In this document: positions 1 to 54,452 of the stretch, piece by piece
Position numbering within the stretch: position 1 is the stretch's first letter
How the letters are laid out: every line of letters starts with the position of its first letter
Assembly: GCA_016193315.1 (NCBI GenBank)
Contig: JACPSJ010000001.1
Span: forward strand, 21,935-85,934
Reading direction: 5' to 3'
DNA length: 64,000 bases
Origin: Candidatus Kerfeldbacteria bacterium
Lineage (GTDB): Bacteria; Patescibacteriota; Patescibacteriia; SBBC01; CAIJZX01
Notes under the pieces: model-generated
The model's input: the letters and a program-made list of their open reading frames with translations, nothing else
What the model was told of the DNA's origin: nothing
Database searches by the model: none
Program-made: the position numbers and the translations under genes

Positions 1-36
1 GAGGGCGGAGTCCAGGCCTGTAATCGGGCGGCCAAG

Positions 37-240
37 TTACTCCTTGAACACGGCTCTCATTTTGTCACCAACGCCGATTTCGGCTGCCATGACAACGTCC
101 ATAAAGCGTGGATTATCATCGAGGCCGATACGAAAGATGGGGCACGCTACATGTTGCCGCCAGACTACCGACCACAGGCCATCATCACTGGCCTGAACAA
201 ATTCAGACTCGAAGAAATCGATCGGCTCACCGAACTGCAT
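37..240 (-). CDS. small hypothetical protein (67 aa). Could also be a spurious ORF at the window edge
   Basis: ORF track only; no recognisable motifs. Confidence 0.2.
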   Translation of the reverse strand: MQFGEPIDFFESEFVQASDDGLWSVVWRQHVACPIFRIGLDDNPRFMDVVMAAEIGVGDKMRAVFKE

Positions 241-333
241 ACATAGTTCAAGACCCGTTAGGAGCCAAGTCGACGGTTGGGGAGCACAAACCCGGCGCGG
301 TTAACAGACGCTCACGTACCGATCAGGCATGTT

Positions 334-1275
334 TTATAGAGTTGTTATCGGCCGCGACTGCAGAATGTAGAAGTTCCCGCGCTGCCACGCCCATTCGATG
401 TCTTGCGGGCGGCGGTAGTGGTTCTCGATTTTGGCGCAGAGTTTGGATAGAGCCAGAATCTGGATTTTAGAAAGTTTCTGTTTCGTTTTTTTGGCCGGCG
501 GTACCGGCCGCTCGATCGTGCCATGCTGGCCACGGACGATGATTTTCTTTTGTTCACTGACATTAATATCAAGGATTTCCCACCCTTTCTTGTGGATGAC
601 GTACGTATCGGGCGTGATTTTCCCGCCGACGATCGCCTCGCCCAGACCCCACCCAGCTTCGATCACCATTTGATCGTAATCTTTGGTGACCGGATGAACG
701 GTGAAGCAAATGCCCGAGACGTCGGACTGGATCATGGCCTGTACCACCACGGCCACGGATACTTTCGTCCGGTGTAATTTATTTTCAAAGCGGTAGAAGA
801 TGGCGCGTGGTGTGAACAGCGATGCCCAGCATTTCTGAACGGCGGAGAGCAAGTCTTTTTTTGTGACGTTGAGATAGCTTTCCAATTCTCCGGCCCATGA
901 GGCGGCGGCGGCGTCTTCGGCCGTGGCCGAACTGCGGACGGCGACCGTTGGTGCTTGGAGCGCCACGAAAGCCAACCGCGTTTCTTTGGCAATGTCAGTC
1001 GGCATATCAACGCTCATGATCTGCCCACGAATGTCTTCAGAAACCCGCTCAATGGAGTTCACGTCGCGGACGTTGATTTTGTGGAGCTGCGCTTCTATTT
1101 CCACGTCGATGTCCGTCTCATCTAAAAAACTTTCAAAAGCCGTAGTCAGCACGACAAAGCCTGACGGCACCGGAATTCCCGCCCTGGCCATTTCACCGAG
1201 GCTCGCGCCCTTGCCGCCCGCGAGAGCAACGTCGGTCCGCGAGAGCAGCCTGAATGGCTTGGTAAACTTAGTCAT
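334..1275 (-). CDS. ATP-grasp nucleotide-binding protein resembling the N-terminal domain of PEP synthase or pyruvate phosphate dikinase (PPDK_N-like)
   Basis: Gly-rich N-terminus VALAGGKGASLGEMARAGIPVPSGFVV and C-terminal DIEWAWQRGNFYILQSRPIT, both typical of PPDK_N; 4-bp overlap with the upstream gene. Confidence 0.75.
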   Translation of the reverse strand: MTKFTKPFRLLSRTDVALAGGKGASLGEMARAGIPVPSGFVVLTTAFESFLDETDIDVEIEAQLHKINVRDVNSIERVSEDIRGQIMSVDMPTDIAKETRLAFVALQAPTVAVRSSATAEDAAAASWAGELESYLNVTKKDLLSAVQKCWASLFTPRAIFYRFENKLHRTKVSVAVVVQAMIQSDVSGICFTVHPVTKDYDQMVIEAGWGLGEAIVGGKITPDTYVIHKKGWEILDINVSEQKKIIVRGQHGTIERPVPPAKKTKQKLSKIQILALSKLCAKIENHYRRPQDIEWAWQRGNFYILQSRPITTL

Positions 1276-2288
1276 CGTCGCGTCAACAGCTTTACCATAC
1301 CTCGATTGCCGTCGACTTCGACTTGATCACCGTCTTGAAAAACCTGCGTGGCATACTTGGTGCCGACGATACAGACGATCCCAAATTCTCGGGCCACGAT
1401 CGCGGCATGGCACATTGCTCCACCCTCGTCGGTCACAATCGCCGCGGCCCGGCGAGCCGCGGTTACGAAATCCGGAGTCGTCATCGGCGCAACCAAGACA
1501 TCACCCGGCCGAACTTTCCGGAGCTGTGAGTGCTCGAACACGACTTTGACGCGGCCACTCGCTTTTTTCTGTATCACACTTGTCCCGCGGAGAGGGCCCG
1601 ACGAGCCAGCCGCGGCATCAAAGGTGATATTGCGGCGACGGGCAAACGTTTCCAGGCGGAGGTCAGCGAATAATTTCCCGCGATAAAAGATGAAGCCGCG
1701 TTTTCGGCGGTTAATGTCTGGCGGCAGGCGGACTGATTCAACTTCCTGTTTAGTCAGGAGCTGGACTATTGGGGAGAAGCTCGCCGGGAGCTTTTTCTTA
1801 GCCATAGATACGAACGTTTTTTCGCCGACACTCAGCAGCTGATCGTATTGGTGGCGCAATCGTTGTGCCTTTTTAGCCAATGGCGGCGAAATTTGATCAG
1901 GGATAAAGCTGCCGAAAATGTCGGCAAAATCTATCAGTGGCCAGATGCTTAGCAGCAAACTGTAGGCTTTCGAAAAATCTTTGGGATTTGCTCGTTCCGA
2001 TAACTCCAAAAATTGTTGCGCCCGCGTCTCGCATTTCACCAGCATTGAATCGACCGCGTGCCGATGTTTGGAATAGTGCTGCTCGAAATGATCGTAATCT
2101 TGCCGGCGATCGGAAAAGTCGAAGTAGAGTGCCGTCCCGCGGCCGGGCCGGTAGTGAAACAGGGGAGCGAAGAAAATACTGCCACCAAATGCTTTCGGTA
2201 AGATGACGCGTTCCCCGCGATCCCAATTTTGACAGAGCAGGAGGGAGATTGATCGATTTTCGACCTTTCGAAAGTGATGAGGCTTCAC
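1272..2288 (-). CDS. PEP-utilizing enzyme mobile (swivel phosphohistidine) domain protein with a ~240-aa N-terminal domain of unknown function
   Basis: C-terminal TTPDFVTAARRAAAIVTDEGGAMCHAAIVAREFGIVCIVG is the PEP-utilisers His motif; 4-bp overlaps at both ends suggest an operon. Confidence 0.7.
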   Translation of the reverse strand: MKPHHFRKVENRSISLLLCQNWDRGERVILPKAFGGSIFFAPLFHYRPGRGTALYFDFSDRRQDYDHFEQHYSKHRHAVDSMLVKCETRAQQFLELSERANPKDFSKAYSLLLSIWPLIDFADIFGSFIPDQISPPLAKKAQRLRHQYDQLLSVGEKTFVSMAKKKLPASFSPIVQLLTKQEVESVRLPPDINRRKRGFIFYRGKLFADLRLETFARRRNITFDAAAGSSGPLRGTSVIQKKASGRVKVVFEHSQLRKVRPGDVLVAPMTTPDFVTAARRAAAIVTDEGGAMCHAAIVAREFGIVCIVGTKYATQVFQDGDQVEVDGNRGMVKLLTRR

Positions 2289-3778
2289 AATATCTTGACT
2301 ACACCTTTCCCGGCATCAACTTCCACTAGATCTCCATCCTTGAGCACTTTTGTAGCCACTCGGGTGCCGATGACGCACGGCTTCTTCAACTCCCGGGCGA
2401 TGATTGCGGCGTGACAAAGCATACCGCCCTCATCAGTGATGATTGCCTTAGCCCGCTTCATCAGCGGCACGAACTCAGGTGAGGTCATCGAGGTGACGAG
2501 GATTTCACCATTTTGAAAGTACCGTCCTTCGTGAATCGGATTGGTGATCGAACGAACCCGGCCAGTAGCTTTTCCCGAAAAGGCGGTTGAGCCTTGGAGT
2601 AGTTTCGCTTGCGCGATTGCTTCCTCGTGCCAATCTTCTTTGCGCACGCCGCTCAAAACTTGAATTTGCTGGCCCACCTGTTTAATGGTAAAACCCTTCA
2701 CCTTGCGCCCGGCGACGATGCGGCGGATCGAATCGCCGCGAAGTCCAGCTATGATTTCCTCCCGCGACAGCCACCATAAATCATTGGGTTCGATACTGAG
2801 GCGTCGGCTGACCTCGTCGTACAGTGGGGCAGCGTGCTGCCAGTAATCGTGGATAAAGAGTGAATCGAGGTTGCGGTAACCCATCATAACCCGCAGCCAA
2901 TGGATGTGTTGACGGACTCGCGGATAGGTACGGAAGCGGGCGAGGATCTTTCGCACCGTCGTGGCTGCTTGCCGTTCTTGAGTTTGGAGAAGTCGTCGGG
3001 CTCGTGGCACCGATAATCCCCGCGACCGAAGAAATCGTTGTTCATAATCAGCCGGGGTAAACGGCCTATTCGTACGCTCGTTGAAAACGCTATGGCCGAA
3101 GTCGTACCATTGTTGGAAAACTACGTTCTGAATGGCCGCCAGGCGACGCTGGCGCTTGATTCGATGGAGACGATGGATCTGTTGCAGGCGGCGGAGGAAA
3201 GCCATGCGCTCGGCGATGAAAATGGAACGGATGCCGACTTGACATAACTGTCGGTAGACCCGCTCTTGTTCTTCGTCCGTGGCGTCAATCAGAACTTCGC
3301 CAATCTCCTGTCTGACAATCCGTGTCAGCAGGTTCACTAGGTCATAGACGATGTAGTATCCCGCTGAAGCAATCTTGCTAGCTAGATGCAGTACTTCGAA
3401 CTCGCGGCGGAGTTGGTTGGTGGACAACCCCAGGTAAAATTCAGGCCCCTTTCGGAAGATTGCATCGGTCATCCGCCTGAGTTGGCGGTACGAGTCGTGG
3501 AAATACCGATCGAGATATTGGAAATAGCGGTGCTCGCGCCGCAGGCGTTTCCAGATTTTTCCCAAAAAAGCATCTTCGACCTTCCGATCCCAATACAAAT
3601 AGACTTGCCGCTTGTTCGGCCCGTCCATCGATACGTACTTGACCCAATTAGGCAAGTTTCGGTACGGCGCGGCGCGCCAGTTGAGCAACGTCACCTGAAG
3701 CGTCTCCTGCTCATGGAGGACTTCAATGGTCCGAACCATTTTTTCGATGTAGCGCTGGTCGGAAAAGGGACGGTACAT
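2285..3778 (-). CDS. second PEP-utilizing mobile-domain protein with a ~390-aa N-terminal domain of unknown function
   Basis: C-terminal TSPEFVPLMKRAKAIITDEGGMLCHAAIIARELKKPCVIG; paralogous to the 1272..2288 gene. Confidence 0.7.
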   Translation of the reverse strand: MYRPFSDQRYIEKMVRTIEVLHEQETLQVTLLNWRAAPYRNLPNWVKYVSMDGPNKRQVYLYWDRKVEDAFLGKIWKRLRREHRYFQYLDRYFHDSYRQLRRMTDAIFRKGPEFYLGLSTNQLRREFEVLHLASKIASAGYYIVYDLVNLLTRIVRQEIGEVLIDATDEEQERVYRQLCQVGIRSIFIAERMAFLRRLQQIHRLHRIKRQRRLAAIQNVVFQQWYDFGHSVFNERTNRPFTPADYEQRFLRSRGLSVPRARRLLQTQERQAATTVRKILARFRTYPRVRQHIHWLRVMMGYRNLDSLFIHDYWQHAAPLYDEVSRRLSIEPNDLWWLSREEIIAGLRGDSIRRIVAGRKVKGFTIKQVGQQIQVLSGVRKEDWHEEAIAQAKLLQGSTAFSGKATGRVRSITNPIHEGRYFQNGEILVTSMTSPEFVPLMKRAKAIITDEGGMLCHAAIIARELKKPCVIGTRVATKVLKDGDLVEVDAGKGVVKIL

Positions 3779-3855
3779 TGTTCTATCGATTCCCGTGTTT
3801 CTGGATGATCGCCTCAGAGACCCCCCGCCGAGGCTCGGGGTGGAGGACGCGGCAG

Positions 3856-6489
3856 CTACCGGTTTCCATGTTTTTGTATGATCGCTTCCGCGTCCTCCAT
3901 CTTGACCGATAGGATTTGTGACACGCCGTCATTCCCCATGGTGACACCGTACAGAATCTGCGATTTTTCCATCGTCGCCCGGTTGTGGGTGATGACGAGG
4001 AACTGGGTTTTCTTGGCCAAGTGGTCGAGGATGGCAGCGAAGCGCTGCGAGTTGGCTTCGTCGAGGGCGGCGTCGACTTCGTCGAGGACGACGAACGGCG
4101 ATGGATTGTTAGAAATAATGGCGCAGAGCAAGGCGATCGAGGTCAGCGCCCGTTCGCCGCCGGAGAGCATGGTAATCGATTGAAGCTTTTTCCCGGGCGG
4201 AGTGGCCTTAATCTCGATACCGGTAATAACCTTCTGGCCCGGATTTTTGCCCGACGGCGGTTCGGATGGAACCGAAACTTCCTCTCCTTCTTCCATCTCT
4301 GGCTGGATGACTTCTTGGGTGAGCGCCAGTTCAGCTCGGCCGCCGCTGAAGAGCGTGCGGAAGTATTGGTGAAACTCCTGGTTGATTTTTTTAAAGGCGC
4401 TGTCGAAGCGTTGTTTAATGGTTGATTCAAGATGGTCAATGGCCTTTTCGAGCGAGGCAATCGCTTGACGAAGGTCGTCGGCCTGATGGCTGAGAAACTC
4501 CCAGCGTTCGTTCGTGCTCCGGTACTCGTCGGTCACTTGCTGGTCAATGCCGCCGATTAGTTGCAGCTGGTGGGTCAAGCGGCCGATCTCTTCGGCTAGC
4601 CGGCCGACGTCGCCATTCAGTTTCTGGTCGGCCGCCTGGGCGATCAGGTCGACCGCCTCCGGGGACATGGCTTGGCGGATTTCTTTTTTTAGATCGTCAA
4701 TCTGTTGCTCGAGCTTGGCCATCTGCACCCGTAAACCGTTGACCGTCGTGGTGGCGTGGTTGAGATGTTGTTGGCTGTCGCGGAAGGCTTTCTGCAAGGT
4801 GAAGAGCCGATCCTTCTTGCTGGTTTCCAGGGCGTTGAAGTTATTGATTTCCTCTCGAGCCGCGGTCAGCGTTTCGTCGAGGGCGGCGATCCGCTGCTCG
4901 ATTTCCTTGGCCTGCTTGGCGTAGGCGGCGTAGGCTTCCTCGGGGTTGGTTTTAGCCAGTTCCTGGATCGACGACTCCTGATGGAGTTTTTCATGCTCGG
5001 CGCCAAGCCGCTCGCGCTCGTCGAGCAGGCGTTGACGGTGGTCGTGAACCCGCTGGCGTTCCGCCCGCGCCTCAGCCAAGCGCTCCGCCGCCCACTGGCG
5101 TTCGGCCATCAGTTTTAAGGCCGATCGTTGGAGCGTTACCAGACTGCGCGTTTCGTCAGAGCCGGCCGAGTCAAGCTGGTCGAGCAAGGTAGTTAGTTCA
5201 ACCGCCAGCGCGTTCGCTTGCTGGCGAAGGGCCGGGAGATCAACCGTTTCCGCTGCCAGGACTTTCTGCCACTGCCGGAATTTCTGCTGCCATCGTCTGA
5301 GCGCCGATTTCCCGGCCGCCAACGACTGTCGTGTCCCATGTCCTTCGATCTGGCTGAGTTGCTGTTCCAGCGCGGCGAACTGCTGGTCCAAGGCGGCCTT
5401 CGACTTTTCCTCACGCTCGACCGAGGTGCCGATACGCTGGCTCATCTGTTCCGCCACATCAAGCTCTTCTTGAATGCGATCGAGCGCCCGCTTCAATTCT
5501 TGGAGTCGATGTTGATGATAGACAACTTCTCCTCGACCCGCTTCTTTGACCGCCACCTCGAGTCGGCCCTTGACCACCGACTGTTCCTGGAGGAGGGCAT
5601 TCTTCTGATCAAGGACGCGATTGTACTTTTTTTGTAGCTCGGCGAAGACCTCCGAGCCGGTTCGTTCCCGCTCGATCTGTTCCAGTTCATCCTGAATAGT
5701 CGAGAGTTCATGTTCAATCGTTCCCCGCCGGCCATCGTTCGACGAATGTGTCGCTTGTCGTTCTTCGAGCTGGCGGTGGAGGGCTTGCCACTGTAACCCG
5801 TAATACAGCCGCTGCTGCTCATGAAGCTGACGTTCGACTTCTTCCCGCCGCTCGAGGCGGCGAACCTGGCGGGTCAAAGAACGAAGCCGCGGCTCAATCT
5901 CCACCATCAGCGTCTCCCCTTGGGCCAGGTTCTCTTTGGCCTGAGCAAGCTTGTGAACCGCCTGATCTTTCTTCAGCTGAAATTGTCGAACACCGGCGGC
6001 TTCGTCGAACAGGTGCTTTCGTTCTTGGGGACTGGAAATGAGGAATGAGTCAATCATCCCTTGGCCGATGACCGAATACGTTCGTTGGCCGAAATTGGCC
6101 TGAGCCAGAAGCAGCTGCATGTCCTGCAAACGGGTGGCTTGGTGGTTCAAAAGATACTCACCCTCGCCGTCGCGGTAGACGCGGCGGGTCAGCACCACCT
6201 CGCTGTACGGCAGTGGGGCACGTTGGTCTTCGTTGTTCAAGTGGAGCGAGACCTCAGCGACCCCGAGCCGCGCCTTCTTATCCGAACCGGCGAAGATGAC
6301 GTCTTCGCTCTTCTTGCCGCGCAGGGCTTTCAGACTTTGCTCGCCAAGGGCCCAACGAATCGCTTCGGCCACATTCGATTTGCCAGAGCCGTTCGGCCCG
6401 ACGATGGCGGTAATGCCGGGCCGAAAGGTGAGGCTGATGCCGTGGGCGAATGATTTGAATCCTTGGAGATCGAGACGAGAGAGGAACAT
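3856..6489 (-). CDS. smc: chromosome segregation protein SMC, short form (~877 aa)
   Basis: N-terminal LDLQGFKSF...GPNGSGKSN (Walker A), long coiled-coil middle, C-terminal LSGGERALTSIALL...VLDEVDAALD signature plus Walker B. Start taken at MFLSRL (6489); the longest ORF start is at 6510. Confidence 0.9.
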   Translation of the reverse strand: MFLSRLDLQGFKSFAHGISLTFRPGITAIVGPNGSGKSNVAEAIRWALGEQSLKALRGKKSEDVIFAGSDKKARLGVAEVSLHLNNEDQRAPLPYSEVVLTRRVYRDGEGEYLLNHQATRLQDMQLLLAQANFGQRTYSVIGQGMIDSFLISSPQERKHLFDEAAGVRQFQLKKDQAVHKLAQAKENLAQGETLMVEIEPRLRSLTRQVRRLERREEVERQLHEQQRLYYGLQWQALHRQLEERQATHSSNDGRRGTIEHELSTIQDELEQIERERTGSEVFAELQKKYNRVLDQKNALLQEQSVVKGRLEVAVKEAGRGEVVYHQHRLQELKRALDRIQEELDVAEQMSQRIGTSVEREEKSKAALDQQFAALEQQLSQIEGHGTRQSLAAGKSALRRWQQKFRQWQKVLAAETVDLPALRQQANALAVELTTLLDQLDSAGSDETRSLVTLQRSALKLMAERQWAAERLAEARAERQRVHDHRQRLLDERERLGAEHEKLHQESSIQELAKTNPEEAYAAYAKQAKEIEQRIAALDETLTAAREEINNFNALETSKKDRLFTLQKAFRDSQQHLNHATTTVNGLRVQMAKLEQQIDDLKKEIRQAMSPEAVDLIAQAADQKLNGDVGRLAEEIGRLTHQLQLIGGIDQQVTDEYRSTNERWEFLSHQADDLRQAIASLEKAIDHLESTIKQRFDSAFKKINQEFHQYFRTLFSGGRAELALTQEVIQPEMEEGEEVSVPSEPPSGKNPGQKVITGIEIKATPPGKKLQSITMLSGGERALTSIALLCAIISNNPSPFVVLDEVDAALDEANSQRFAAILDHLAKKTQFLVITHNRATMEKSQILYGVTMGNDGVSQILSVKMEDAEAIIQKHGNR

Positions 6490-6574
6490 ACGATAGTCAA
6501 TGCCGGGCAAGGTTGCCTGGCCGCAGTCTCATGGTTGAGTCTTCAAACTGGCACCTTCGACCGACCGGAGAGGC

Positions 6575-7069
6575 CTACAACTTTCCCTGAATGCGGAGGA
6601 TGAACAGCCCGATCATGGCGATGGCGGCCAAGAGCTTAACCAGCGTGCCGCCCATGAAAGCGACAATGGTGTAGTTGCCGCTCTGGTAGGAGTAGACGCG
6701 GTCGCGCCCGCGGAACAGTTCGAGGACGATGGCGCCAACCAGCGGTCCGACGAGGTAGGTGGAAATGGGGCCGAAAATCGAGCCGACTAGGCCGCCGACC
6801 ACCGCCCCAATCACGCCCCAGGCGTCGGCCCGCAACGGTTGAACGCCGCTCCGGCTGAGGGTGTAGTCAAGAACGATGGTGGCGACGGCGATGGCCGAGA
6901 TGAGAACCATAAAATTCTCACTCACCGCCACGTAACCGTGCGTCAGGCCGTAGAGGAAGATGCCAAACCAAATGGTCGGGATTGACGGGGCAAAAGGGAA
7001 AACAATGGCCAACAAACCACCGGCCACCAGGAGAAAGCTCAGAATGACACCAAGATTTGCTAGATTCAT
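6575..7069 (-). CDS. DUF456-like small membrane protein
   Basis: 4 predicted TM helices; Gly-rich VGGLVGSIFGP, typical of the YqgC/DUF456 family. Confidence 0.55.
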   Translation of the reverse strand: MNLANLGVILSFLLVAGGLLAIVFPFAPSIPTIWFGIFLYGLTHGYVAVSENFMVLISAIAVATIVLDYTLSRSGVQPLRADAWGVIGAVVGGLVGSIFGPISTYLVGPLVGAIVLELFRGRDRVYSYQSGNYTIVAFMGGTLVKLLAAIAMIGLFILRIQGKL

Positions 7070-7079
7070 CTTCCTAGTC

Positions 7080-7784
7080 TTATGAATTCCAACCTTTGGC
7101 CGCCAACCCGTTGAAGGCGGCCATCACCTGAGCTTCTTGTTTTGAGGCGCCCTCGCCCGCGGCGATTTGATCGTCATCAATGTACAGGCCGACCAAAAAA
7201 TGCTTGTCATGATCCGGCCCCCATTCTTTCAGCACTTTGTAGGACGGCGTGATGCCGAGAATAGCCTGGCTCATTTCCTGAAACTTGCTCTTGGGATCGA
7301 CGTAGAGCTGTTGTTGCAGGATATCCGGCAGCTTGCTTAAGATCCGGGCCATGATGAACGCCTCGGCCGGCGCCAAGCCGCCGTCGAGAAAGAGGGCACC
7401 AATAATGGCTTCGACCGCGTTGGCGTGAATGTTCTGACGGGCCTTGGAGTTTTTTTCTTTGGCTTCGCCGCGGCTCATCATCAGCCAGTGATCGAGATCG
7501 AGTTCGGCGGCCACCGTGGACAGCGACTTGGCGTTGACCAGACTGGCCCGCCAGTTTGTCAGATCGCCCTCCGGGTTGGGGTAGTGATGGAAGAGGTGCT
7601 GGCTGACGACCAGTTCCAAGACGGCGTCGCCGAGGAATTCCAGCCGCTCGTTGTGCCCGAGCGGAAAATCAGGGTGCTCGTTGAGGTAGGAGCGATGGAC
7701 CAGCGCTTGGCGTAGGAGATCGGGATGTAGAAATTGGTGCTTCAGGATAGTTTGGATTTCGTCGATGTCGGCCATAGCCGTCAT
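7080..7784 (-). CDS. rnc: ribonuclease III
   Basis: RNase III signature [15 protein letters not shown]; dsRBD at the C-terminus. Confidence 0.9.
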
Positions 7785-46315: not shown

Positions 46316-46387
46316 TCGGTCCCTAGCTCAATGGTAGAGCACTCGTCTTATACACGAGCGGTTGCAGGTTCGAGTCCTGCGGGACCG
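46316..46387 (+). tRNA. tRNA with anticodon TAT (would read AUA; Ile-like), no encoded CCA
   Basis: Cloverleaf: acceptor CGGTCCC/GGGACCG, D-arm GCTC..GAGC, anticodon stem CTCGT/ACGAG, loop CTTATAC, T-arm GCAGG TTCGAGT CCTGC. Confidence 0.6.
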
Positions 46388-46548
46388 AGTTTGGGCGGGA
46401 CAGGTACACGAGCGGTCGCGGGACTGCCCCGAAAACGAGGAACTACGTGACAAGTTGTACGGGACTCGAATCCTGGCGGGCCGACCATGGAAAGGGTGTA
46501 TCGCCTCAGCGCTTAAGGCACCCGGTGTGAAAGATTCAACCGAAAACT

Positions 46549-47574
46549 ATGAAAGCAGTTTTCTTTGAGCGGCCTGGCGGGCTGGAAGTTCTTCGGTACG
46601 GAGATTTCGATGATCCGATTCCGAATGAAGGCGAAGCTTTGGTTCGAGTCAAAGCTGGTGGCCTGAATCGACTGGATATTTGGCTGCGCGAAGACCGGGA
46701 CAACATTCGGAACATACCGATGCCTCACATCCCCGGGTCAGATGTATCGGGCACGGTGGAGAAGATCGTAGGTCAGGCGGGTTTCCGAATCGGTCAGGAC
46801 GTGGTGCTGAATCCGGCCATTCCGTGCGGCCTCTGTCCGCGTTGCAAAAAAGGACAGCCGTGCGAGCTGGTGAAGATATTCGGCGTCAAGAATCAAGGTG
46901 GGTACGCTGAGTACGTGGTAGCACCAATCGCGCAGCTGTATCCAAAACCGCCCCACCTTTCTTTCATCGAAGCTGCGGCATTTCCCCTGACGATGCTGAC
47001 CGCTTGGCACATGCTGGCCGGTCGGGCTCACGTGCAGCCGGGTGAAACGGTCTTTATCTGGGGCGCCTCCGGTGGCCTAGGATCGGCGGCCATTCCTGTA
47101 GCTAGATATCTGGGGGCCAGGATTATCGCCGCGGCCAAGTCTGAAGAACAGGCCCGCCGCATCCGTGAGTTGGGCGTGGATGAAACCGTGGTCTATACGA
47201 GGGATGACGTTGATCAAAAAGTAAAGAGTCTGACACATGGCCAAGGAGTCGATGTCGTCTTTGAAAGTGTCGGTCAGAAGACTTGGCCGACAACGCTGGC
47301 CATGCTTAGACCGTTCGGCCGCGTGGTGATTGCCGGCACCACCACTGGTGACGTGGGGACGCAAGATTTGAGTGATTTGTACGTTCGCCAACTGTCTATG
47401 CTAGGCGCCAGGATGGGCACCAAAGAAGAATTCGAAACGGTCTTGAGATTAATCGCCAGCGGTCACTTGAAACCGATTATTGATCGGACCTTCCCACTCA
47501 GCCAAGCGGCTGAAGCCCAACGAAGGATGGTAGACGGAAAACACATAGGGAAGATCGTTCTAGAAATTCCGTAA
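46549..47574 (+). CDS. zinc-type alcohol dehydrogenase / quinone oxidoreductase (MDR family)
   Basis: GroES-like N-terminus, Rossmann motif FIWGASGGLGSAAI. Confidence 0.85.
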   Translation: MKAVFFERPGGLEVLRYGDFDDPIPNEGEALVRVKAGGLNRLDIWLREDRDNIRNIPMPHIPGSDVSGTVEKIVGQAGFRIGQDVVLNPAIPCGLCPRCKKGQPCELVKIFGVKNQGGYAEYVVAPIAQLYPKPPHLSFIEAAAFPLTMLTAWHMLAGRAHVQPGETVFIWGASGGLGSAAIPVARYLGARIIAAAKSEEQARRIRELGVDETVVYTRDDVDQKVKSLTHGQGVDVVFESVGQKTWPTTLAMLRPFGRVVIAGTTTGDVGTQDLSDLYVRQLSMLGARMGTKEEFETVLRLIASGHLKPIIDRTFPLSQAAEAQRRMVDGKHIGKIVLEIP

Positions 47575-47686
47575 GTCAGGTCTGGCGGGACGCCGGTGAC
47601 CTCGATCCACGTGATTCGGGGCGAAAAGCCTAGCTCGCCTGCCAAGGTCGCTGACAGTGTGATAAACTATAACGAGATCAATTATC

Positions 47687-47938
47687 ATGACCCTGCCGGT
47701 GACGACCAAAACCAAGGTTACCTCGACACTCACCCCGGTCATCATTCTGACGACCGCGGGCAGCCTGCTGGAGCTCCAGACAGTTGGGGTGGCGATGTTG
47801 ATGGCTGTGTCAGCGTTGTTTATTCTCCTGCTGGCGCCGGCACCATCACTGTTCGGCTTGATCTGGCTCTTCAGCGCCGTGCTGATGGTCATCCGCGCGG
47901 CCCAGGGTTTCTTCGCCTGGCAGGCTGGGCTACGCTGA
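47687..47938 (+). CDS. small hydrophobic protein (2 TM)
   Basis: ORF only. Confidence 0.35.
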   Translation: MTLPVTTKTKVTSTLTPVIILTTAGSLLELQTVGVAMLMAVSALFILLLAPAPSLFGLIWLFSAVLMVIRAAQGFFAWQAGLR

Positions 47939-48032
47939 CATTGACGTCCCTGTAACTCGCCGCGACGAATAGAATAGCAGGTTTCACTGCACTGTCGAAT
48001 ACCACTTGAGCCGCCCAAAGGAGGTGGGGTTG

Positions 48033-48290
48033 ATGCCGCTACAGCTCCTTGAGACGTCAGGTCGCGAGGCCGGAGTGCTGATGCCCGACGATGAAGCCTT
48101 CACGCAACTAGGCGTGATGATCAGGCGACGGACTCGTTGGGTCCTGACCAGCTACGCACCGCAACGGGTCAGAGTCGGTGGTCAGCCGGCACCAATCGGC
48201 GTGGCGCGCGGCCTGCGGTCGCAAGACCTGGTCATCATTGGCGATCTGCCGTTCCGGTTTCGTCCGGTCAAGCCGGGCTCAAGACATTAA
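48033..48290 (+). CDS. hypothetical small protein
   Basis: AAGGAGG before the ATG at 48033. Confidence 0.35.
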   Translation: MPLQLLETSGREAGVLMPDDEAFTQLGVMIRRRTRWVLTSYAPQRVRVGGQPAPIGVARGLRSQDLVIIGDLPFRFRPVKPGSRH

Positions 48291-48504
48291 TCTTAGCCCG
48301 GTATTTCTTACTTGAACTATTGGGGTCGGCGTGCTACCCTCCATCGCGCGAGTTTCCTGTACTTTCTGGTTTACGAGTTCGTAGCTCTCGCCCGCTAGCG
48401 CCTTCGGCGCAAGCCGTGGCGAGCGGGCAGCCCGGTTAGACCCGCCCGCCGGCTTCGCCCGATTCTGTCAAATTATCGTCTTGGTTTAAAGAAAAGCTGC
48501 TGTT

Positions 48505-48581
48505 GGGTTCGTAGCTCAGTTGGTTAGAGCGCCACATTGACATTGTGGAGGTCAGAGGTTCAAATCCTCTCGGACCCACCA
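48505..48581 (+). tRNA. tRNA-Val (GAC), CCA encoded
   Basis: Cloverleaf GGGTTCG..anticodon loop TTGACAT..TTCAAAT..CGGACCCACCA. Confidence 0.85.
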
Positions 48582-48617
48582 AGAGCTTTTCTTACGCCGG
48601 CGAAGCGGGCCGGGGCG

Positions 48618-48665
48618 CTACGTTGACATCGTGAAGGCCAGAGGTTCAAATCCGGGCGTGGTACG
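48618..48665 (+). repeat. degenerate partial copy of the tRNA-Val anticodon/T-arm region
   Basis: cgttgacatcgtgaaggccagaggttcaaatcc versus tRNA cattgacattgtggaggtcagaggttcaaatcc; the T-stem is not complementary. Confidence 0.3.
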
Positions 48666-48690
48666 TAGAACGTGCCGCGCGGACCGGAGG

Positions 48691-49590
48691 ATGGTGGGAG
48701 ATGAGTGGTATACTGTGGACGTGGAACAGGAGGATTTGGGCCGGAATCCCGAACGTCGTGAACGAGAATTCCAGTTTCGAATTGGCCAGCGCACCAGGCC
48801 GAGCGCCCGACACCCGGAGCGAAATGAGGACGCCATACTGGTTGACCAGGAAGCTGGCGTGTTTGCGGTTTTTGATGGCGTCAGTGGCCTGGAAAACGGA
48901 GCTGGCGGATCGGCCGCCCAAATGGCCAAAGAACACATCGCCCGACTGGTTCGAGAAATGCCCAGGCAGATGTCGCTGGTCGATGTCCGAGATTACTTGG
49001 TGTTAGCGGCACACCACACCAACGAAACACTGTGGAAACATCAACGTGAACGCAACCTCGAGGGCCTTGAAACGACGATGACGCTCGGCTGTATCGTTGA
49101 GGAACATGGTTCACGCTGTCTCCTGACCGTTCATGTCGGGGATAGCCGAGCGTATGTATTAAGAGGCCGGTCAACTCTGGAAACGGTCACTCTTGATGAC
49201 AGCTTGATTCGGAGCATGGGTCTCGATGAGGCCGGAATGAAACAGGTGCAGAAGAGGCTCAGCAACGCCCAAACTGCCGCCGGGCTGTCGCCCGAAGAAA
49301 GACGCGCGTTTAGATTTCGGAACCTAATCACTCAGGGACTCGGTTATGAATCGATCGAACCACACACGACCGCTACCGAGATTCAGCCCGGTGATCGCGT
49401 CCTGCTTACGACCGACGGTATCCACGATAATCTGATTCAGGACGAAATGGAAGGAACTCTTAAATCGTCAGCCGACGTCCAGCAATCCGCCGACAACATG
49501 GTTGAGGCCGCCGCGCAACGCAGCGCGGAAAAAGGCGATCGTGCTAACCCGGACGATATGACGACGTTGGTGGTTGAGGTGGTGGAATAA
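48691..49590 (+). CDS. PP2C-family Ser/Thr protein phosphatase
   Basis: PP2C motifs EDAILVDQEAGVFAVFDGVSG, TMTLGCIVEEHG, HVGDSRAYV, LLTTDGIHDNL. Confidence 0.8.
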   Translation: MVGDEWYTVDVEQEDLGRNPERREREFQFRIGQRTRPSARHPERNEDAILVDQEAGVFAVFDGVSGLENGAGGSAAQMAKEHIARLVREMPRQMSLVDVRDYLVLAAHHTNETLWKHQRERNLEGLETTMTLGCIVEEHGSRCLLTVHVGDSRAYVLRGRSTLETVTLDDSLIRSMGLDEAGMKQVQKRLSNAQTAAGLSPEERRAFRFRNLITQGLGYESIEPHTTATEIQPGDRVLLTTDGIHDNLIQDEMEGTLKSSADVQQSADNMVEAAAQRSAEKGDRANPDDMTTLVVEVVE

Positions 49591-49630
49591 CAATCACCCC
49601 CCAACGGGGGGGGTGATTGCGTTGATGGTT

Positions 49631-52600
49631 CTAACTTTCCAACCCGAGCTCGCGGCGATTGCGTCGCAGGAGGACGTATCCAGCCGTCAGGGCGGCCACC
49701 CCGAGACTGAAGAGCACGTAGTCGCTAGCCGAGACGCCAGTTTCGGCCAGACCCAGCACCTGCGGCACCTTGACCGTGATGGTAGCTTGAGCGGTGATTG
49801 GATCGACGTCGTCGGCCGTCGCCACTGCCGTATTGACGTAGTTGCCAGCCTTAACGTCTTGACCGACGGTTACCTGGTAGGTGATCGTCTTTGCATCGCC
49901 GGGCGCGATCAAGTCGTAAGTCCATTCCTTGGTGCTAGTGCCATCGGGATAGGAGAACCCGGCTGGCAACTTGTCGGTCACCACGACGTTTCGGGCCTGG
50001 CCGTCACCGTGGTTGGAAACCACCAGGGTATAGGTCACGGTCTTACCTGGATTGGTGACGGTCGGGTCGGCCGTTTTCTCCAGGCTGAGTTCAGGAGTAG
50101 CGACGCCGAGGACTTGGGGTACTCTGACCACGATGTCCGAAGTGTCGCTGACCGGATCAGTGTTGGTGGCGTCAGCGGTGGCCGTGTTGGTGTAGGTGCC
50201 GGCCGTCGCGCCGGGGTCGATATTGACGACATAGGTGAAGGTTTTTGATTTGCCCGGCGCCAAGTCACCGATGACGAAATCCTTGGCTGTACCGCCGCCG
50301 TCGTTGAACGTCAGGTTAGCTGGCAGGACATCCTTGAGCGTTACGTCCTCAGCCGCAGCGGTGGCGGATGAAGCGTTGCTCACCGATACCGTGTAGGTGA
50401 TAGCGCTGTTGGGATTGACGAAGGCCGGGGCGTTGTTTGACTTGGACACCCGCAGAGCCGGAGCTGATTTGACGGTGGTGGTGGCGGTGTCTTCGACCGC
50501 GTCGGTCTCGTCGCTGTCAAAGGTGGCGGTGTTCTCTAGGATCGTACCAGTAGCCAGCGGCGATTTGACTTTCACCGTGACGGCCACGCGGCCGCGGTCG
50601 CCGGGATTCTTGGTGCCGAGATCCCAGGTGACGGTGCCGTCGGCAAAGGCGCCGCCGTGGTCAGCACTGACGAACGTTGTGTCGGACGGAATCGGGTCAG
50701 TGATGACGGCCTGGGTGGCCGGCGTGTTGCCGTCGACGGACCAATCCAGGGTGTAAGTCAGGTTATCGCCAGCGTCGATGGTAGCGGGCCCGGTCTTGTC
50801 GAGATCGATGGTGGTCACCAGTTTCCGGTTGGTGAACGTGCACTGGTATTCAGCCCCCGGCGAGGCCCGGAAGGTGACACTCGTATCCTGGTCGACGTCC
50901 AATGGGTCCCCGTTGACGCGACACTCGACGCCGACGAACTCATAGCCAGCCTTGACATCTTCACGGACGGTCGTCGAGCCCGGACTGATGGTGCGCGTCG
51001 AACCCGTGGCGAAGTTTTGATTGCCACCGTTGAGATCCCACGTCCAGTTCGTGGCTCCAACCACGTCGCTGGCATCTTCCAGGTCGCCGTCACCGTTCTG
51101 ATCGACGTTCTTGTTGACGGTCAGCGAGGCGGTGGGTAGAAGACGATTGCAGAGCGTAATGGCTGTATTCTGGAACGGCTCGACGTCAACCATGATCGGT
51201 AAGGTTGTGCCTTCAAAACTCTCGGCATCGTCACACGAGGCCTCTCGGTCGCTGAAGAACCAGCCCACGAATCCGTAACCGGCGGCTAGTTTTTCATTGA
51301 CCGAATGGGAACCCGGGTTAGCCACGACGGTGTTGCCCATGGCGTTGGCGCTGCCGCCATCGACGGCCCAGGTGAATCCGAGTTGGTTGGCCTGGTCATT
51401 ACCGCCCTCGAATTGTTGATCGAAGTCGGAGTTAACCTGCTTGTTGACCCGAATCGAGCCGGGGCAGAGCGCACGCGCATAACCGGTCAAGGCGTCGCCG
51501 ATGCCGTCGAAGTCGGCGACCTTGATGACATCAGTGTTCGTGGTGATGGCGTCTGGGCTAGTGGCGATGGCCGGGCCAGAGATAGCCGACAACTTATAGT
51601 TATTCCAGCTTGAGTCACCGCTATCGAATTCCGGATCAGTGTCATCCTCGCCGATGCCGATGACGACAATGCGAGTACCGCTCTGTTTGATGGTGTTGGC
51701 ACGCTCGATCGCTTTTTCCAATCCGTCGTTCCAGTCAAACGGTTCGGCGGCGGGATACCCCCAGCGATTCGGTGATCCGTCGGTAGCGATGACCATCAGG
51801 TTTGGGTTCGGACGCGGGTCGAAGCTGTCCCCACTCTGGGCCAGCCCGGCATCCCAGTTGGTATGACCGTCACCACTCGACGGCAAGGCGTTGATCGCGG
51901 CCGCTGCTTGCGCCGCGGTCATGGGAAAACCCTGCTCGAGATTTGAACTGGTGGCAAACGAGGCCAGGCTGAAGACCGTTGGCGTGTCGTCGAAGGCGTT
52001 AACGAAGGTGGTCATCGCCTCCTTGATCTGCGTCATGTCGCTGCTGCTGACGCTGTCCGAGGCGTCGACAATCAATCCCACATCGAGACCACAGGATTGC
52101 CCGAGGCCCGGATTCGCCGTGGGCATCAAGTAGTTGACCCTGACCGCCACCGAGTCGACGCCCACCCGATTCGGAGTCTGGAGGCTGCCCGGGAAGCTCG
52201 CCCGGAGGCGGACGGCGAATGAATCGTTGTCCAAGTCGGTGGCCGGCCACTGGTCACGGCCCCATTCGTCGTTCGGTCCACCCACGATGAGTGTGGTGTA
52301 GTCGGCACCGAAGTTGTCAGCGTCTCGCCGGTCCTCCCAACCCGACGTGCCAGCCGGATTGTCGGCGCTGACATAAACGTCGAGATCGAGTTCGCCGCTG
52401 CCGCTGGTGCGGTGAGCTTTGATTTGTACCTCCAGACCGGTGACGACCGCGCCGGACGGGATGGAAATGTTAAAACCGCCATACTTCTCTTGGCCATCGT
52501 GGTCGAAGACTGCATCCTCGCCATCGGCGGCGTAGGCTTTGGATGGGTTGGATACGATGGTATGAATATTGGCGTTCGATGTTGGCGCTTTCCAGCTCGT

Positions 52601-52852
52601 GGTGGCCGCGTTGGCCACCGCTGGTACGAACAACGCCGTCAGTGAACTGATGTTAATCATGGTGGCGATGGCCACCAAGATATTGAAAACTTTCCACGTG
52701 CGCCGGCGCGCGGCTTTCCGGCGGAGCGTGGCCCAGCCAATGATTGTGCCACTGATCATGAGAAAAACCCTGGTTAGCTTATGAAAACGGCCAAGGGGTT
52801 TTCTACTACCCCCCATAGCCGGTGCATGTTTTTGACCATGTTTCATTACCAT
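49631..52852 (-). CDS. large surface protein: signal/TM N-terminus, vWA domain, DUF11-type repeats, C-terminal LAETG sortase-type sorting signal
   Basis: vWA MIDAS region GLDVGLIVDASDSV...VIATDGSPN; repeated Thr/Val-rich Ig-like repeats; C-terminus LAETGVSASDYVLFSLGVAALTAGYVLLRRNRRE (LPXTG-like motif, TM helix, basic tail). Confidence 0.8.
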   Translation of the reverse strand: MVMKHGQKHAPAMGGSRKPLGRFHKLTRVFLMISGTIIGWATLRRKAARRRTWKVFNILVAIATMINISSLTALFVPAVANAATTSWKAPTSNANIHTIVSNPSKAYAADGEDAVFDHDGQEKYGGFNISIPSGAVVTGLEVQIKAHRTSGSGELDLDVYVSADNPAGTSGWEDRRDADNFGADYTTLIVGGPNDEWGRDQWPATDLDNDSFAVRLRASFPGSLQTPNRVGVDSVAVRVNYLMPTANPGLGQSCGLDVGLIVDASDSVSSSDMTQIKEAMTTFVNAFDDTPTVFSLASFATSSNLEQGFPMTAAQAAAAINALPSSGDGHTNWDAGLAQSGDSFDPRPNPNLMVIATDGSPNRWGYPAAEPFDWNDGLEKAIERANTIKQSGTRIVVIGIGEDDTDPEFDSGDSSWNNYKLSAISGPAIATSPDAITTNTDVIKVADFDGIGDALTGYARALCPGSIRVNKQVNSDFDQQFEGGNDQANQLGFTWAVDGGSANAMGNTVVANPGSHSVNEKLAAGYGFVGWFFSDREASCDDAESFEGTTLPIMVDVEPFQNTAITLCNRLLPTASLTVNKNVDQNGDGDLEDASDVVGATNWTWDLNGGNQNFATGSTRTISPGSTTVREDVKAGYEFVGVECRVNGDPLDVDQDTSVTFRASPGAEYQCTFTNRKLVTTIDLDKTGPATIDAGDNLTYTLDWSVDGNTPATQAVITDPIPSDTTFVSADHGGAFADGTVTWDLGTKNPGDRGRVAVTVKVKSPLATGTILENTATFDSDETDAVEDTATTTVKSAPALRVSKSNNAPAFVNPNSAITYTVSVSNASSATAAAEDVTLKDVLPANLTFNDGGGTAKDFVIGDLAPGKSKTFTYVVNIDPGATAGTYTNTATADATNTDPVSDTSDIVVRVPQVLGVATPELSLEKTADPTVTNPGKTVTYTLVVSNHGDGQARNVVVTDKLPAGFSYPDGTSTKEWTYDLIAPGDAKTITYQVTVGQDVKAGNYVNTAVATADDVDPITAQATITVKVPQVLGLAETGVSASDYVLFSLGVAALTAGYVLLRRNRRELGLES

Positions 52853-53001
52853 GTTGATCCAGAGGTGTCAAATCGGTCCAAGATCTCTTGATCTGGTTGT
52901 GGACAGACCCTGTTGGTGATTCTGTCGAACGCCTACTTTAGGGGCCTCTACGCTGCATTAGGTATGCACAAGTTATCCACCATTTTTCATCACCGAAATA
53001 T

Positions 53002-53964
53002 GTGGTCTGGGTTCATGATATGCTGAGCAGTGCTATGAGCAACCAGTCGATTGTAGTCCCAGCCGGGACGCCGCCAGTCCGCCTCGATGTCTTTCTGACG
53101 CAACACACTGATCTATCCCGGTCGCAACTCCAAAAACACATCAAGTCTGGCGCCGTATTACTGAATGGCCGGGCCGTTTCCGCCCACCACCAGGTACATC
53201 CTGGCGATGCCGTCGTCCTGCAGGAAATCAGTGCCACCTACCACGAGCAGCCGATCACCGCTGATACCGCTGACCCAGTGGTGGTGTTTGAAGATGACAA
53301 TCTGCTGGTCATCAACAAGCCCAGCGGCCTGGTGGTTCATCCCGCACCCGGCATCCGTGAACGTACGGTTTACGACTGGGCCGTACAGCATGCTCCGGCC
53401 ATTGGCGGCATTGGCGATCAACCACAATTGCGGGGAGGTATTGTGCACCGTCTCGATCGCGATGTCTCCGGGCTGATGGTGATCGCCAAGTCACAACCAA
53501 TGTTCGATTTTCTGAAGTCTCGGTTTCAGGAGCACGCTGTGGAGAAGGAGTACCTAGCCCTTGTCCATGGCCGCTTGACTGACACCAGTGGCCGGATTGA
53601 CTTTGCCATCGCCCGTAAAGCCGATCATTCTGGGTTAATGGTGGCGCGACCGAAGTCACAGGAAGGGAAAGAGGCGGCGACACTGTTTACGGTCGAGCGC
53701 CACATCAAGAATCTCACGCTCGTTCGGGTCCGAACGTTGACTGGTCGCAGTCACCAAATCCGCGTTCACTTCAAGGCCATTGGTCATCCACTGGTTGGCG
53801 ACCCGCTGTATCGAATCCGGGGCCAAAAACGATTGCGGATCACTCCGCCCCGCCCGTTTCTCCATGCCACGGTGCTCGGCTTCACCGATCTTGCCGGGCA
53901 GCGCAGAAAATTCGAAGCGCCGTTGCCGAATGATTTGCAGCAGTACTTGGCTCGGGTTGGATAA
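53002..53964 (+). CDS. rluD: RluA-family 23S rRNA pseudouridine synthase (RluD-like)
   Basis: S4 domain at the N-terminus; catalytic HRLDRDVSGLMVIAKS. Confidence 0.85.
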   Translation: MVWVHDMLSSAMSNQSIVVPAGTPPVRLDVFLTQHTDLSRSQLQKHIKSGAVLLNGRAVSAHHQVHPGDAVVLQEISATYHEQPITADTADPVVVFEDDNLLVINKPSGLVVHPAPGIRERTVYDWAVQHAPAIGGIGDQPQLRGGIVHRLDRDVSGLMVIAKSQPMFDFLKSRFQEHAVEKEYLALVHGRLTDTSGRIDFAIARKADHSGLMVARPKSQEGKEAATLFTVERHIKNLTLVRVRTLTGRSHQIRVHFKAIGHPLVGDPLYRIRGQKRLRITPPRPFLHATVLGFTDLAGQRRKFEAPLPNDLQQYLARVG

Positions 53965-54083: not shown

Positions 54084-54105
54084 GTCGTGGTCCTCAGTAA
54101 TTCTT

Positions 54106-54417: not shown

Positions 54418-54452
54418 AACGTTACACTGTCTGTCAGGCCGGAATCTTGATC

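What the first reader, a model, noticed from the sequence alone, without database searches (positions are those of the whole stretch)
334..3778. Three-gene split PEP-synthase / rifampin-phosphotransferase-like module without a PEP-binding barrel
Three co-directional genes with 4-bp overlaps encode two paralogous proteins and one ATP-grasp protein. The two paralogues each have a canonical PEP-utilisers swivel phosphohistidine domain (GGxxCHAAIxARE) at the C-terminus behind a large N-terminal domain of unknown function. The third is a stand-alone PPDK_N ATP-grasp protein. No PEP/pyruvate-binding TIM-barrel domain is present. This is the domain inventory of rifampin phosphotransferase-type small-molecule kinases, but split over three polypeptides in reversed order, and with two alternative His-domain carriers that could each deliver phosphate to a different substrate.
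Basis: partly seen in the sequence, partly recalled or inferred. Interest (0 to 1): 0.6.

Follow-up and report, generated by a model that had tools for sequence, protein, structure and literature searches.

The report
Split kinase: one loader, two carriers
Three overlapping genes in a Candidate Phyla Radiation bacterium encode a rifampin-phosphotransferase-type kinase split into one ATP-binding protein and two different phosphate-carrier/substrate-binding proteins, and this is a small example of large, apparently undescribed arrays of such carriers in ultra-small bacteria and archaea.

Summary
Three minus-strand genes with 4-bp overlaps encode A (497 aa), B (338 aa) and C (313 aa). A and B each end in a PEP-utilizers swivel domain with the catalytic His, and C is a complete stand-alone PPDK_N ATP-grasp protein. 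There is no PEP/pyruvate barrel in these genes or their neighbours. A's N-domain is not unknown: it is the Rph-type substrate-binding domain, and B carries a shortened version. Split Rph-like dikinases are already characterised (PpsAB, CreHI, HpeHI, AcvAB). A plus C equal a fused 820-aa homologue (53-54% identity in each half), and C keeps the Rph ATP-site residues. What differs is two carriers for one loader. In 84 other fetched loci, mostly CPR and DPANN, carrier genes form same-strand arrays of 2-10. No locus has more than one ATP-grasp gene, and some loci are fused into megaproteins (one over 4,613 aa with nine modules). Within arrays, swivel domains stay about 56% identical while N-domains have diverged to about 14%. 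The most likely mechanism is that C loads phosphate onto His456 of A and His294 of B, and each carrier then phosphorylates its own small-molecule substrate. The substrates are unknown. I rate this a new variant of a known kind.

The parts
2285..3778 (-). Gene A: 497-aa carrier, made of an Rph-type substrate-binding domain (res 1-~385) and a C-terminal phosphohistidine swivel domain
   Evidence: ORF. Pfam. AlphaFold model pLDDT 91.7. Foldseek top hits are Listeria Rph 5hv1/5fbu/5fbt at E 1.8e-14. It is 53% identical over 99% of its length to the fused 820-aa P0002.
2624..3778 (-). A N-terminal substrate-binding domain (res 1-385)
   Evidence: The profile aligns to Rph 628-866. Used alone it finds only 18 representative clusters among 1.84 billion proteins.
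2870..2875 (-). A Arg302-Asn303, invariant in the A family, at the position of the Rph Arg666-Glu667 phosphotransfer dyad
   Evidence: Invariant columns. Alignment to 5fbs (YRN against YRE). The role of R666/E667 is from PMC4844700. Codons checked.
2303..2518 (-). A swivel domain (PF00391, res 421-492), with catalytic His456 at 2411..2413
1272..2288 (-). Gene B: 338-aa carrier, made of a shorter N-domain (res 1-~228) and a swivel domain; GTG start overlaps the stop codon of A
1299..1511 (-). B swivel domain (PF00391, res 260-330), with catalytic His294 at 1407..1409
334..1275 (-). Gene C: 313-aa stand-alone PPDK_N ATP-grasp protein (the loader); ATG start overlaps the stop codon of B
   Evidence: PF01326 E 4.3e-101. 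PDB hits: Rph ATP-grasp 5hv6 E 3.7e-64 and HpeI 9GOJ E 1.8e-57. K22, R114, S133 and E294 correspond to Rph K22, R117, T136 and E297. It is 54% identical to P0002 res 11-322.

Best explanation
The three genes encode a multi-component small-molecule dikinase of the rifampin-phosphotransferase (Rph) type. C is the ATP-grasp loader. It binds MgATP, and the swivel-domain histidine of a carrier (His456 of A or His294 of B) attacks the beta-phosphate. The gamma-phosphate is then released as Pi, which leaves AMP and a phosphohistidine. The swivel domain returns to the carrier's own N-terminal substrate-binding domain and transfers the phosphate to a bound small molecule. In A this step is assisted by the invariant Arg302-Asn303 site. 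A and B share only the swivel domain and the ~70 residues before it, so they most likely phosphorylate two different substrates while drawing on one shared loader. The architecture, the homology and the conservation of catalytic residues are shown by the analysis. Loading of both carriers by C, the AMP + Pi chemistry and the small-molecule nature of the substrates are inferred from Rph, PpsAB and HpeHI. The substrates themselves are unknown. Candidates are host-derived or environmental hydroxylated compounds that are either trapped or inactivated by phosphorylation.
For: Domain calls are. A folds as the Rph RIF-binding domain plus swivel, and B's best full-chain match is also Rph. C keeps all four Rph ATP-site residues. 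A keeps the Arg of the Rph Arg-Glu dyad in an invariant YRN motif. A and C are 53% and 54% identical to the two halves of a single fused 820-aa protein, P0002. That is a Rosetta-stone link between A and C. Fusions also join the loader to B-type modules: L081 has a 665-aa ATP-grasp + B-like fusion next to an A orthologue, and L052 and L044 carry ATP-grasp, B-like and further modules in one chain. The 4-bp overlaps suggest co-translation. Across 85 loci there are 277 swivel modules and 41 ATP-grasp domains. No locus has more than one ATP-grasp, all 60 multi-gene loci are on a single strand, and the median gap between genes is 4 bp. Of 275 modules, 264 keep the (C/S)H motif. Within-locus swivel domains are 56% identical, against about 14% identical residues in the N-domains. 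This fits a common docking partner combined with diverged specificities. The mechanism has been shown biochemically for the two-component homologues PpsAB and HpeHI and for Rph (PMC12167813, PMC4844700).
Against: There is no biochemical evidence for any CPR or DPANN member. The first ~150 residues of B have no confident structural match, so whether B binds a small molecule is less certain than for A. The Glu of the Rph dyad is Asn in the A family. In 43 of 85 fetched loci no ATP-grasp gene lies within the DNA held, although many of these arrays run off the locus edge. No conserved neighbouring gene points to a pathway. The loci were seeded from swivel-domain patterns of a CPR family, so the taxonomic picture is biased.
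Confidence: 0.7

Rival explanations
1. Only A and C form the enzyme, as a split copy of the fused P0002-type protein. B would then be an unrelated insertion that is loaded by another ATP-grasp protein elsewhere in the genome, or that acts as a regulator or decoy for C.
For: A and C each match one half of P0002 at equal identity, whereas B has no counterpart in that protein. B orthologues occur without A orthologues (L083, L084) and A orthologues occur without B (L085).
Against: B lies between A and C with 4-bp overlaps on both sides. B keeps the catalytic His and 18 invariant columns across 37 homologues. B-type modules are fused directly to the ATP-grasp domain in L081, L044, L052, L070, L073 and L076. 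No fetched locus has a second ATP-grasp gene.
Confidence: 0.12
2. The carriers phosphorylate macromolecules such as proteins, glycans or cell-envelope polymers rather than small molecules. This would resemble glucan water dikinase or the Enzyme I to HPr relay, and the arrays would then be signalling or surface-modification systems.
For: Swivel domains also serve protein and polymer phosphorylation in EI and GWD. One array (L083) is embedded among mur genes. VadK shows that barrel-less PPDK derivatives can be regulatory.
Against: The only full-length structural match for A is the small-molecule kinase Rph. All characterised two-component relatives act on small phenolics. No carbohydrate-binding or HPr-like domains were detected. 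The gene neighbourhoods are heterogeneous.
Confidence: 0.1
3. The genes are bona fide rifamycin or other antibiotic resistance genes (rph orthologues), as automated resistome surveys of CPR genomes have labelled similar genes.
For: The Rph architecture is present. A resistome survey reports rph-like hits in CPR (PMC8651080). The fused homologue P0002 sits near APH and nucleotidyltransferase genes.
Against: The NCBIfam Rph models score 74 and 50 bits for A, against cut-offs of 999 and 1700. A is about 16% identical to Rph in the structural alignment. Glu667 is replaced. Tandem arrays of 5-10 highly diverged paralogues are not what a single-drug resistance gene looks like.
Confidence: 0.05
4. 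The trio is a fragmented pseudogene of ppsA or an rph-like gene.
For: All three products hit PEP-synthase models in part.
Against: The gene order does not match any parent gene. There are two swivel domains and no barrel. Each product has many full-length homologues of the same size with invariant residues. The fold predictions are high confidence, and the same layout recurs in dozens of genomes.
Confidence: 0.01

Closest known systems
Two-component small-molecule dikinases: phenylphosphate synthase PpsAB (Thauera aromatica), CreHI (Corynebacterium glutamicum), HpeHI (Rhodococcus rhodochrous), AcvAB (Sphingobium SYK-6)
   Same: They have a separate ATP-grasp subunit and a carrier subunit made of an Rph-like substrate-binding domain plus a C-terminal swivel domain with the catalytic His in GGxx(C/S)HAAI. 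They have no PEP/pyruvate barrel. C matches HpeI (PDB 9GOJ) at E 1.8e-57 (PMC12167813).
   Different: The known systems are described as one carrier with one ATP-grasp subunit, act on phenolics, and lie in aromatic-catabolism clusters. Here two carriers with unrelated N-domains share one ATP-grasp gene, there is no catabolic context, and related loci hold up to 10 carriers. A matches the PRK08296-type models only in the swivel region (87 bits against a cut-off of 578), and its nearest relative is a fused enzyme. This split is therefore probably independent of the aromatic-kinase clade.
Rifampin phosphotransferase Rph (Listeria monocytogenes, PDB 5FBS/5HV1)
   Same: The same three domain types and, by inference, the same swivelling dikinase mechanism. 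A's whole chain superimposes on the RIF-binding and swivel domains. C keeps the equivalents of K22, R117, T136 (as Ser) and E297. A keeps the equivalent of Arg666.
   Different: Rph is a single 867-aa chain in the order ATP-grasp, RIF-binding domain, swivel. Here the parts are on separate proteins with the carriers encoded first. Structural-alignment identity is about 16%, Glu667 is Asn, and the NCBIfam Rph cut-offs are missed by a wide margin.
PEP synthase (PpsA) and pyruvate phosphate dikinase (PPDK)
   Same: Homologous ATP-grasp and swivel domains, and the same His-mediated transfer of the beta-phosphate.
   Different: The PEP/pyruvate TIM-barrel domain (PF02896) is absent. In PpsA and PPDK the swivel domain is central rather than C-terminal. 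The substrate domain here has a different fold (PMC12167813).
Mycobacterium tuberculosis VadK (Rv1127c), a barrel-less PPDK derivative
   Same: An ATP-grasp domain plus a phosphohistidine domain without a PEP barrel, with autophosphorylation on His (PMC13400623).
   Different: VadK is a single chain without an Rph-type substrate-binding domain and has a regulatory role. The proteins here carry dedicated substrate-binding domains and are split.

Membership tests
Two-component Rph-like small-molecule dikinases (PpsAB/CreHI/HpeHI/AcvAB) | Stand-alone ATP-grasp (PPDK_N) subunit homologous to the Rph ATP-grasp domain | tested here: met
   C: PF01326 E 4.3e-101 over the full length; HpeI 9GOJ E 1.8e-57 and Rph 5hv6 E 3.7e-64
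Two-component Rph-like small-molecule dikinases (PpsAB/CreHI/HpeHI/AcvAB) | Carrier subunit made of an Rph-type substrate-binding domain followed by a C-terminal swivel domain | tested here: met
Two-component Rph-like small-molecule dikinases (PpsAB/CreHI/HpeHI/AcvAB) | Catalytic His in a GGxx(S/C)HAAI motif near the C-terminus | tested here: met
   A GGMLCH456AAII and B GGAMCH294AAIV; the His is invariant in both family alignments
Two-component Rph-like small-molecule dikinases (PpsAB/CreHI/HpeHI/AcvAB) | Close sequence kinship of the carrier with PpsA/CreH/HpeH (~45% pairwise identity within that clade) | tested here: not met
   This is an indirect test. The PRK08296-type NCBIfam models match A and B only in the swivel region (87-89 bits against cut-offs of 578 or more).
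Two-component Rph-like small-molecule dikinases (PpsAB/CreHI/HpeHI/AcvAB) | One carrier gene paired with one ATP-grasp gene | tested here: not met
   There are two carriers and one ATP-grasp gene in the window, and 2-10 carriers per locus elsewhere
Two-component Rph-like small-molecule dikinases (PpsAB/CreHI/HpeHI/AcvAB) | Dikinase chemistry: ATP + substrate gives AMP + Pi + phospho-substrate via phosphohistidine | not testable with these tools
   This needs enzyme assays
Rifampin phosphotransferase (NCBIfam NF041857 / NF000283) | Score above the curated equivalog cut-off | tested here: not met
   A scores 74.1 bits against 999 and 49.5 against 1700. C scores 284 against 999.
Rifampin phosphotransferase (NCBIfam NF041857 / NF000283) | Single chain in the order ATP-grasp, RIF-binding domain, swivel | tested here: not met
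   The domains are split over separate genes. The fused form exists in the homologue P0002.
Rifampin phosphotransferase (NCBIfam NF041857 / NF000283) | Arg666-Glu667 dyad essential for the second phosphotransfer | tested here: inconclusive
   The Arg is conserved (A R302, invariant), but the Glu is replaced by an invariant Asn303
PEP synthase / PPDK | C-terminal PEP/pyruvate-binding TIM barrel (PF02896) | tested here: not met
   There is no PF02896 hit in A, B or C at E<=1. The flanking genes are SMC_N and a convergent ORF with no Pfam hit. The PpsA and PPDK equivalog cut-offs are not reached.
Known anti-phage defence systems (PADLOC) | Match to any PADLOC model | tested here: not met
   No hits for A, B or C

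The most novel reading that the evidence does not exclude
CPR bacteria and DPANN archaea carry a previously undescribed 'one loader, many carriers' phosphorylation platform. A single ATP-grasp protein charges up to ten or so tandemly encoded, or covalently fused, carrier modules. Their swivel domains are conserved, but their substrate-binding domains have diverged almost beyond recognition, which would give these tiny, biosynthetically poor symbionts a broad panel of ATP-driven small-molecule kinases for capturing or neutralising host and environmental compounds. The window's trio is a minimal instance. Megaproteins of more than 4,600 aa with nine modules are the extreme.
Probability: 0.5. Interest if true: 0.8.

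Novelty: new variant of a known kind. Interest (0 to 1): 0.6.

Why it matters
Two-component Rph-like dikinases were recognised as a subfamily only in 2025, and only for aromatic catabolism. This locus and its relatives suggest that the same chemistry has been modularised in ultra-small symbionts, with one ATP-loading subunit serving many rapidly diverging substrate modules. These arrays can occupy 10-15 kb of genomes of about 1 Mb, which is a large investment for organisms with minimal metabolism. Identifying the substrates could show how CPR and DPANN cells acquire or detoxify compounds from their hosts. It also bears on resistome surveys that label such genes as rifampin phosphotransferases. 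In addition, the system offers a natural scaffold for engineering kinases with swappable specificity.

Tried and rejected
- **Pseudogene fragmentation:** rejected. Both carrier families have many full-length homologues, the fold predictions are confident, and the layout recurs.
- **Weak Pfam hits:** Epimerase_2, Cupin_3 and PIG-X all fall below their cut-offs, and the first two overlap the swivel region, so I treated them as noise.
- **Defence-system membership:** no PADLOC hits.
- **Promoter and terminator scan of 1..7200:** counts equalled the shuffled expectation, so it was uninformative.
- **Rfam scan:** only 7 tRNAs, far from the locus.
- **Neighbour enrichment:** among 123 flanking ORFs no family reached more than 4 members. 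HAD and His_Phos_1 phosphatases were highest at 4 each, so no pathway could be inferred.
- **Single-sequence search with A's N-domain:** only 18 representative clusters were found, so it could not link A to any annotated family.
- **Literature:** searches combining PEP-utilizers, PF00391, dikinase, swivel or rifampin phosphotransferase with CPR, DPANN or Patescibacteria found only a resistome survey that counts rph-like hits. None described the arrays. MarK, an aromatic kinase, has an unrelated fold.
- **His456 to Arg302 distance in the model:** I could not measure it because the model coordinates are not exposed.
Full report
**Observation.** The window carries three co-directional minus-strand ORFs:

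| Gene | Coordinates | Length | Start codon |
|---|---|---|---|
| A | 2285..3778 | 497 aa | ATG |
| B | 1272..2288 | 338 aa | GTG |
| C | 334..1275 | 313 aa | ATG |

The A/B and B/C junctions overlap by four bases, GTGA and ATGA. Pfam places a full PEP-utilizers swivel domain at A 421-492 and at B 260-330 (E about 1e-26 each). It places a full-length PPDK_N ATP-grasp domain over C 17-312 (E 4.3e-101). No PEP-utilizers_C barrel is present. The catalytic motifs are GGMLCH456AAIIARE in A and GGAMCH294AAIVARE in B. Upstream on the same strand, 77 bp away, lies an SMC_N gene. Downstream lies a convergent plus-strand ORF that ends near position 243 and has no Pfam match. The source is a Candidatus Kerfeldbacteria (CPR) genome. 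GenBank annotates A and B with later starts (447 and 257 aa), but homologues cover the full 497 and 338 residues.

**What the parts are.**
- **A.** A is not a swivel domain behind an unknown domain. NCBIfam Rph and PRK06241 models align to A from about residue 261 onward, and PDB sequence search aligns A 289-497 to Listeria Rph 653-866. A high-confidence AlphaFold model (pLDDT 91.7) has Rph as its only full-length structural match (Foldseek E 1.8e-14, 570-600 aligned columns). In the family profile alignment, the invariant A residues Arg302-Asn303 (YRN) fall on Rph Arg666-Glu667 (YRE). That dyad contacts the transferred phosphate and is essential for the second phosphotransfer (PMC4844700).
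- **C.** C matches the Rph ATP-grasp domain (5hv6, E 3.7e-64) and HpeI (9GOJ, E 1.8e-57). It retains Lys22, Arg114, Ser133 and Glu294, which correspond to Rph Lys22, Arg117, Thr136 and Glu297.

**A and C are two halves of one enzyme.** The closest relative of A is P0002, an 820-aa single-chain protein with the Rph domain order: PPDK_N at 26-326 and swivel at 745-815. A is 53% identical to its C-terminal 490 residues, and C is 54% identical to its N-terminal 312 residues. Equal divergence of the two halves argues that A and C together are a split orthologue of that enzyme, with B as an additional carrier encoded between them.

**Comparison with what is known.** Splitting an Rph-like dikinase into an ATP-grasp subunit and a subunit carrying the substrate-binding and swivel domains is already established. 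Examples are PpsAB of Thauera aromatica, CreHI of Corynebacterium glutamicum, HpeHI of Rhodococcus rhodochrous and AcvAB of Sphingobium. For these, the ping-pong mechanism through a pyrophospho- or phosphohistidine, and the need for the conserved His, have been shown (PMC12167813; PMC12624787). The window system works like these enzymes but does not belong to their clade. The PRK08296-type models match A and B only in the swivel region, far below their cut-offs. The NCBIfam Rph, PpsA and PPDK equivalog cut-offs are also missed by wide margins.

**The wider pattern.** A pattern scan of one genome per species returned 79 loci. By their record titles, about 45 are CPR lineages and about 19 are DPANN or other archaeal MAGs. 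The rest carry generic or automatic labels. I classified all ORFs in these loci, in five further loci found by exact-protein lookup, and in L001, using profiles for A-N, B-N, swivel and PPDK_N.
- **Tandem arrays.** Carrier genes, each a variable N-domain of about 250-400 aa plus a swivel domain, occur in tandem. Including the window, the 85 loci hold 277 swivel modules. 64 loci have at least 2 modules, 20 have at least 5, and the largest has 10.
- **One loader at most.** There are 41 ATP-grasp domains in total, and no locus has more than one.
- **Tight packing.** All 60 multi-gene loci are on a single strand, with a median gap of 4 bp.
- **Loader position.** The stand-alone ATP-grasp gene is first in 13 loci, last in 10 (as in the window) and internal in 5. 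In 14 loci it is fused to one or more carrier modules.
- **Fusions.** L081 encodes a 665-aa ATP-grasp + B-like protein directly upstream of an A orthologue. L052 encodes ATP-grasp, B-like, another module and A-like in 1,541 aa. L040 is an uninterrupted 4,613-codon frame with one ATP-grasp and nine modules, and I confirmed it by direct translation.
- **Conserved heads, diverged bodies.** Of 275 modules, 264 keep the (C/S)H motif. Within a locus, swivel domains are a median 56% identical, whereas N-domains share only about 14% identical residues. A's N-domain alone retrieves only 18 representative clusters from 1.84 billion proteins.
- **Mix and match.** A and B orthologues are combined freely. 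L082 has two A-type carriers, one other carrier, a B orthologue and an ATP-grasp gene. L083 and L084 have B without A, and L085 has A without B.

**Mechanism.** The best-supported reading is a shared-loader dikinase. C binds ATP. The swivel His of A or B is charged at C, then swings back to its own N-domain and phosphorylates a bound small molecule, which differs between A and B. The following are shown by the analysis:
- the architecture and the homology;
- conserved catalytic residues in all three proteins;
- the fusion links between the loader and both carrier types;
- the limit of one loader per array.

The following are inferred:
- that C serves both carriers;
- the AMP + Pi stoichiometry;
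- that the acceptors are small molecules.

The substrates are unknown. Gene neighbourhoods vary widely. The most frequent flanking families, HAD and His_Phos_1 phosphatases, each occur in only 4 of 123 neighbours. This fits a self-contained capture or detoxification role better than a step in a fixed pathway, but it does not prove one.

**Rivals.**
- **B is not a client of C (0.12).** The double 4-bp overlaps and the loader fusions with B-type modules argue against this.
- **The acceptors are macromolecules (0.10).** This is not excluded. It is disfavoured because Rph is the only full-length structural match and all characterised relatives act on small molecules.
- **True rifamycin resistance (0.05).** The HMM cut-offs, the Glu-to-Asn change and the array structure argue against this.
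- **Pseudogene fragments (0.01).** This is effectively refuted.

**Caveats.**
- The loci were seeded from swivel motifs of a CPR family and capped at 80, so restriction to CPR and DPANN is not demonstrated.
- Flanks were at most 6 kb, so the absence of an ATP-grasp gene in 43 loci may reflect truncation.
- My ORF calls are mechanical.
- The searchable literature yielded no description of these arrays, but that library is incomplete.

**Verdict.** The trio is a new variant of a known kind, a two-component Rph-like dikinase with two carriers per loader. It also points to a broad and apparently undescribed multi-carrier expansion in ultra-small prokaryotes. Interest is 0.6.

Noticed in passing
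window 3856..6510 (-): The SMC_N-family gene directly upstream of A encodes only 884 aa with a TTG start. It gave no SMC hinge-domain Pfam hit at E<=0.01, so it is unusually short for a canonical SMC.
   Followed up: partly
window 2285..3778 and 1272..2288 (-): GenBank annotates both carriers with later start codons (447 and 257 aa), but dozens of homologues align over the full 497 and 338 residues. The deposited gene models are therefore probably truncated at the N-terminus.
   Followed up: yes
L040 229..14067 (+), Nanoarchaeota MAG: An uninterrupted reading frame of 4,613 codons encodes one ATP-grasp domain followed by nine carrier modules and runs off the end of the fetched DNA. Similar multi-module proteins occur in L032 (2,586 aa), L044, L073, L076 and L052.
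   Followed up: partly
L085 9627..10520 (+) and neighbours of other arrays: A His_Phos_1-like phosphatase gene lies between an A orthologue and its ATP-grasp gene. HAD and His_Phos_1 phosphatases are the most frequent array neighbours, though each occurs in only 4 of 123. This may hint at a kinase/phosphatase pairing.
   Followed up: partly
L083 1..13209: One array (a 322-aa carrier, a B orthologue, an ATP-grasp gene and a 108-aa lone swivel domain) is embedded among murG, a Mur ligase gene and murB.
   Followed up: no
L001 749..5150: The fused single-chain homologue P0002 lies a few genes from APH, NTP_transf_6, NTP_transf_2 and D-Ala-D-Ala ligase genes, which is a resistance-like neighbourhood.
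   Followed up: no
window 1..243 (+): A convergent ORF enters from the left edge of the window (81 aa visible, ending ...RLTELHT*) and has no Pfam match.
   Followed up: partly
window 46317..61726: Seven tRNA genes lie within about 15 kb. Six are on the plus strand and one is on the minus strand.
   Followed up: no
window 6575..7069 (-): A DUF456 membrane protein gene lies between the SMC-like gene and the RNase III-like and NusB-like ORFs.
   Followed up: no
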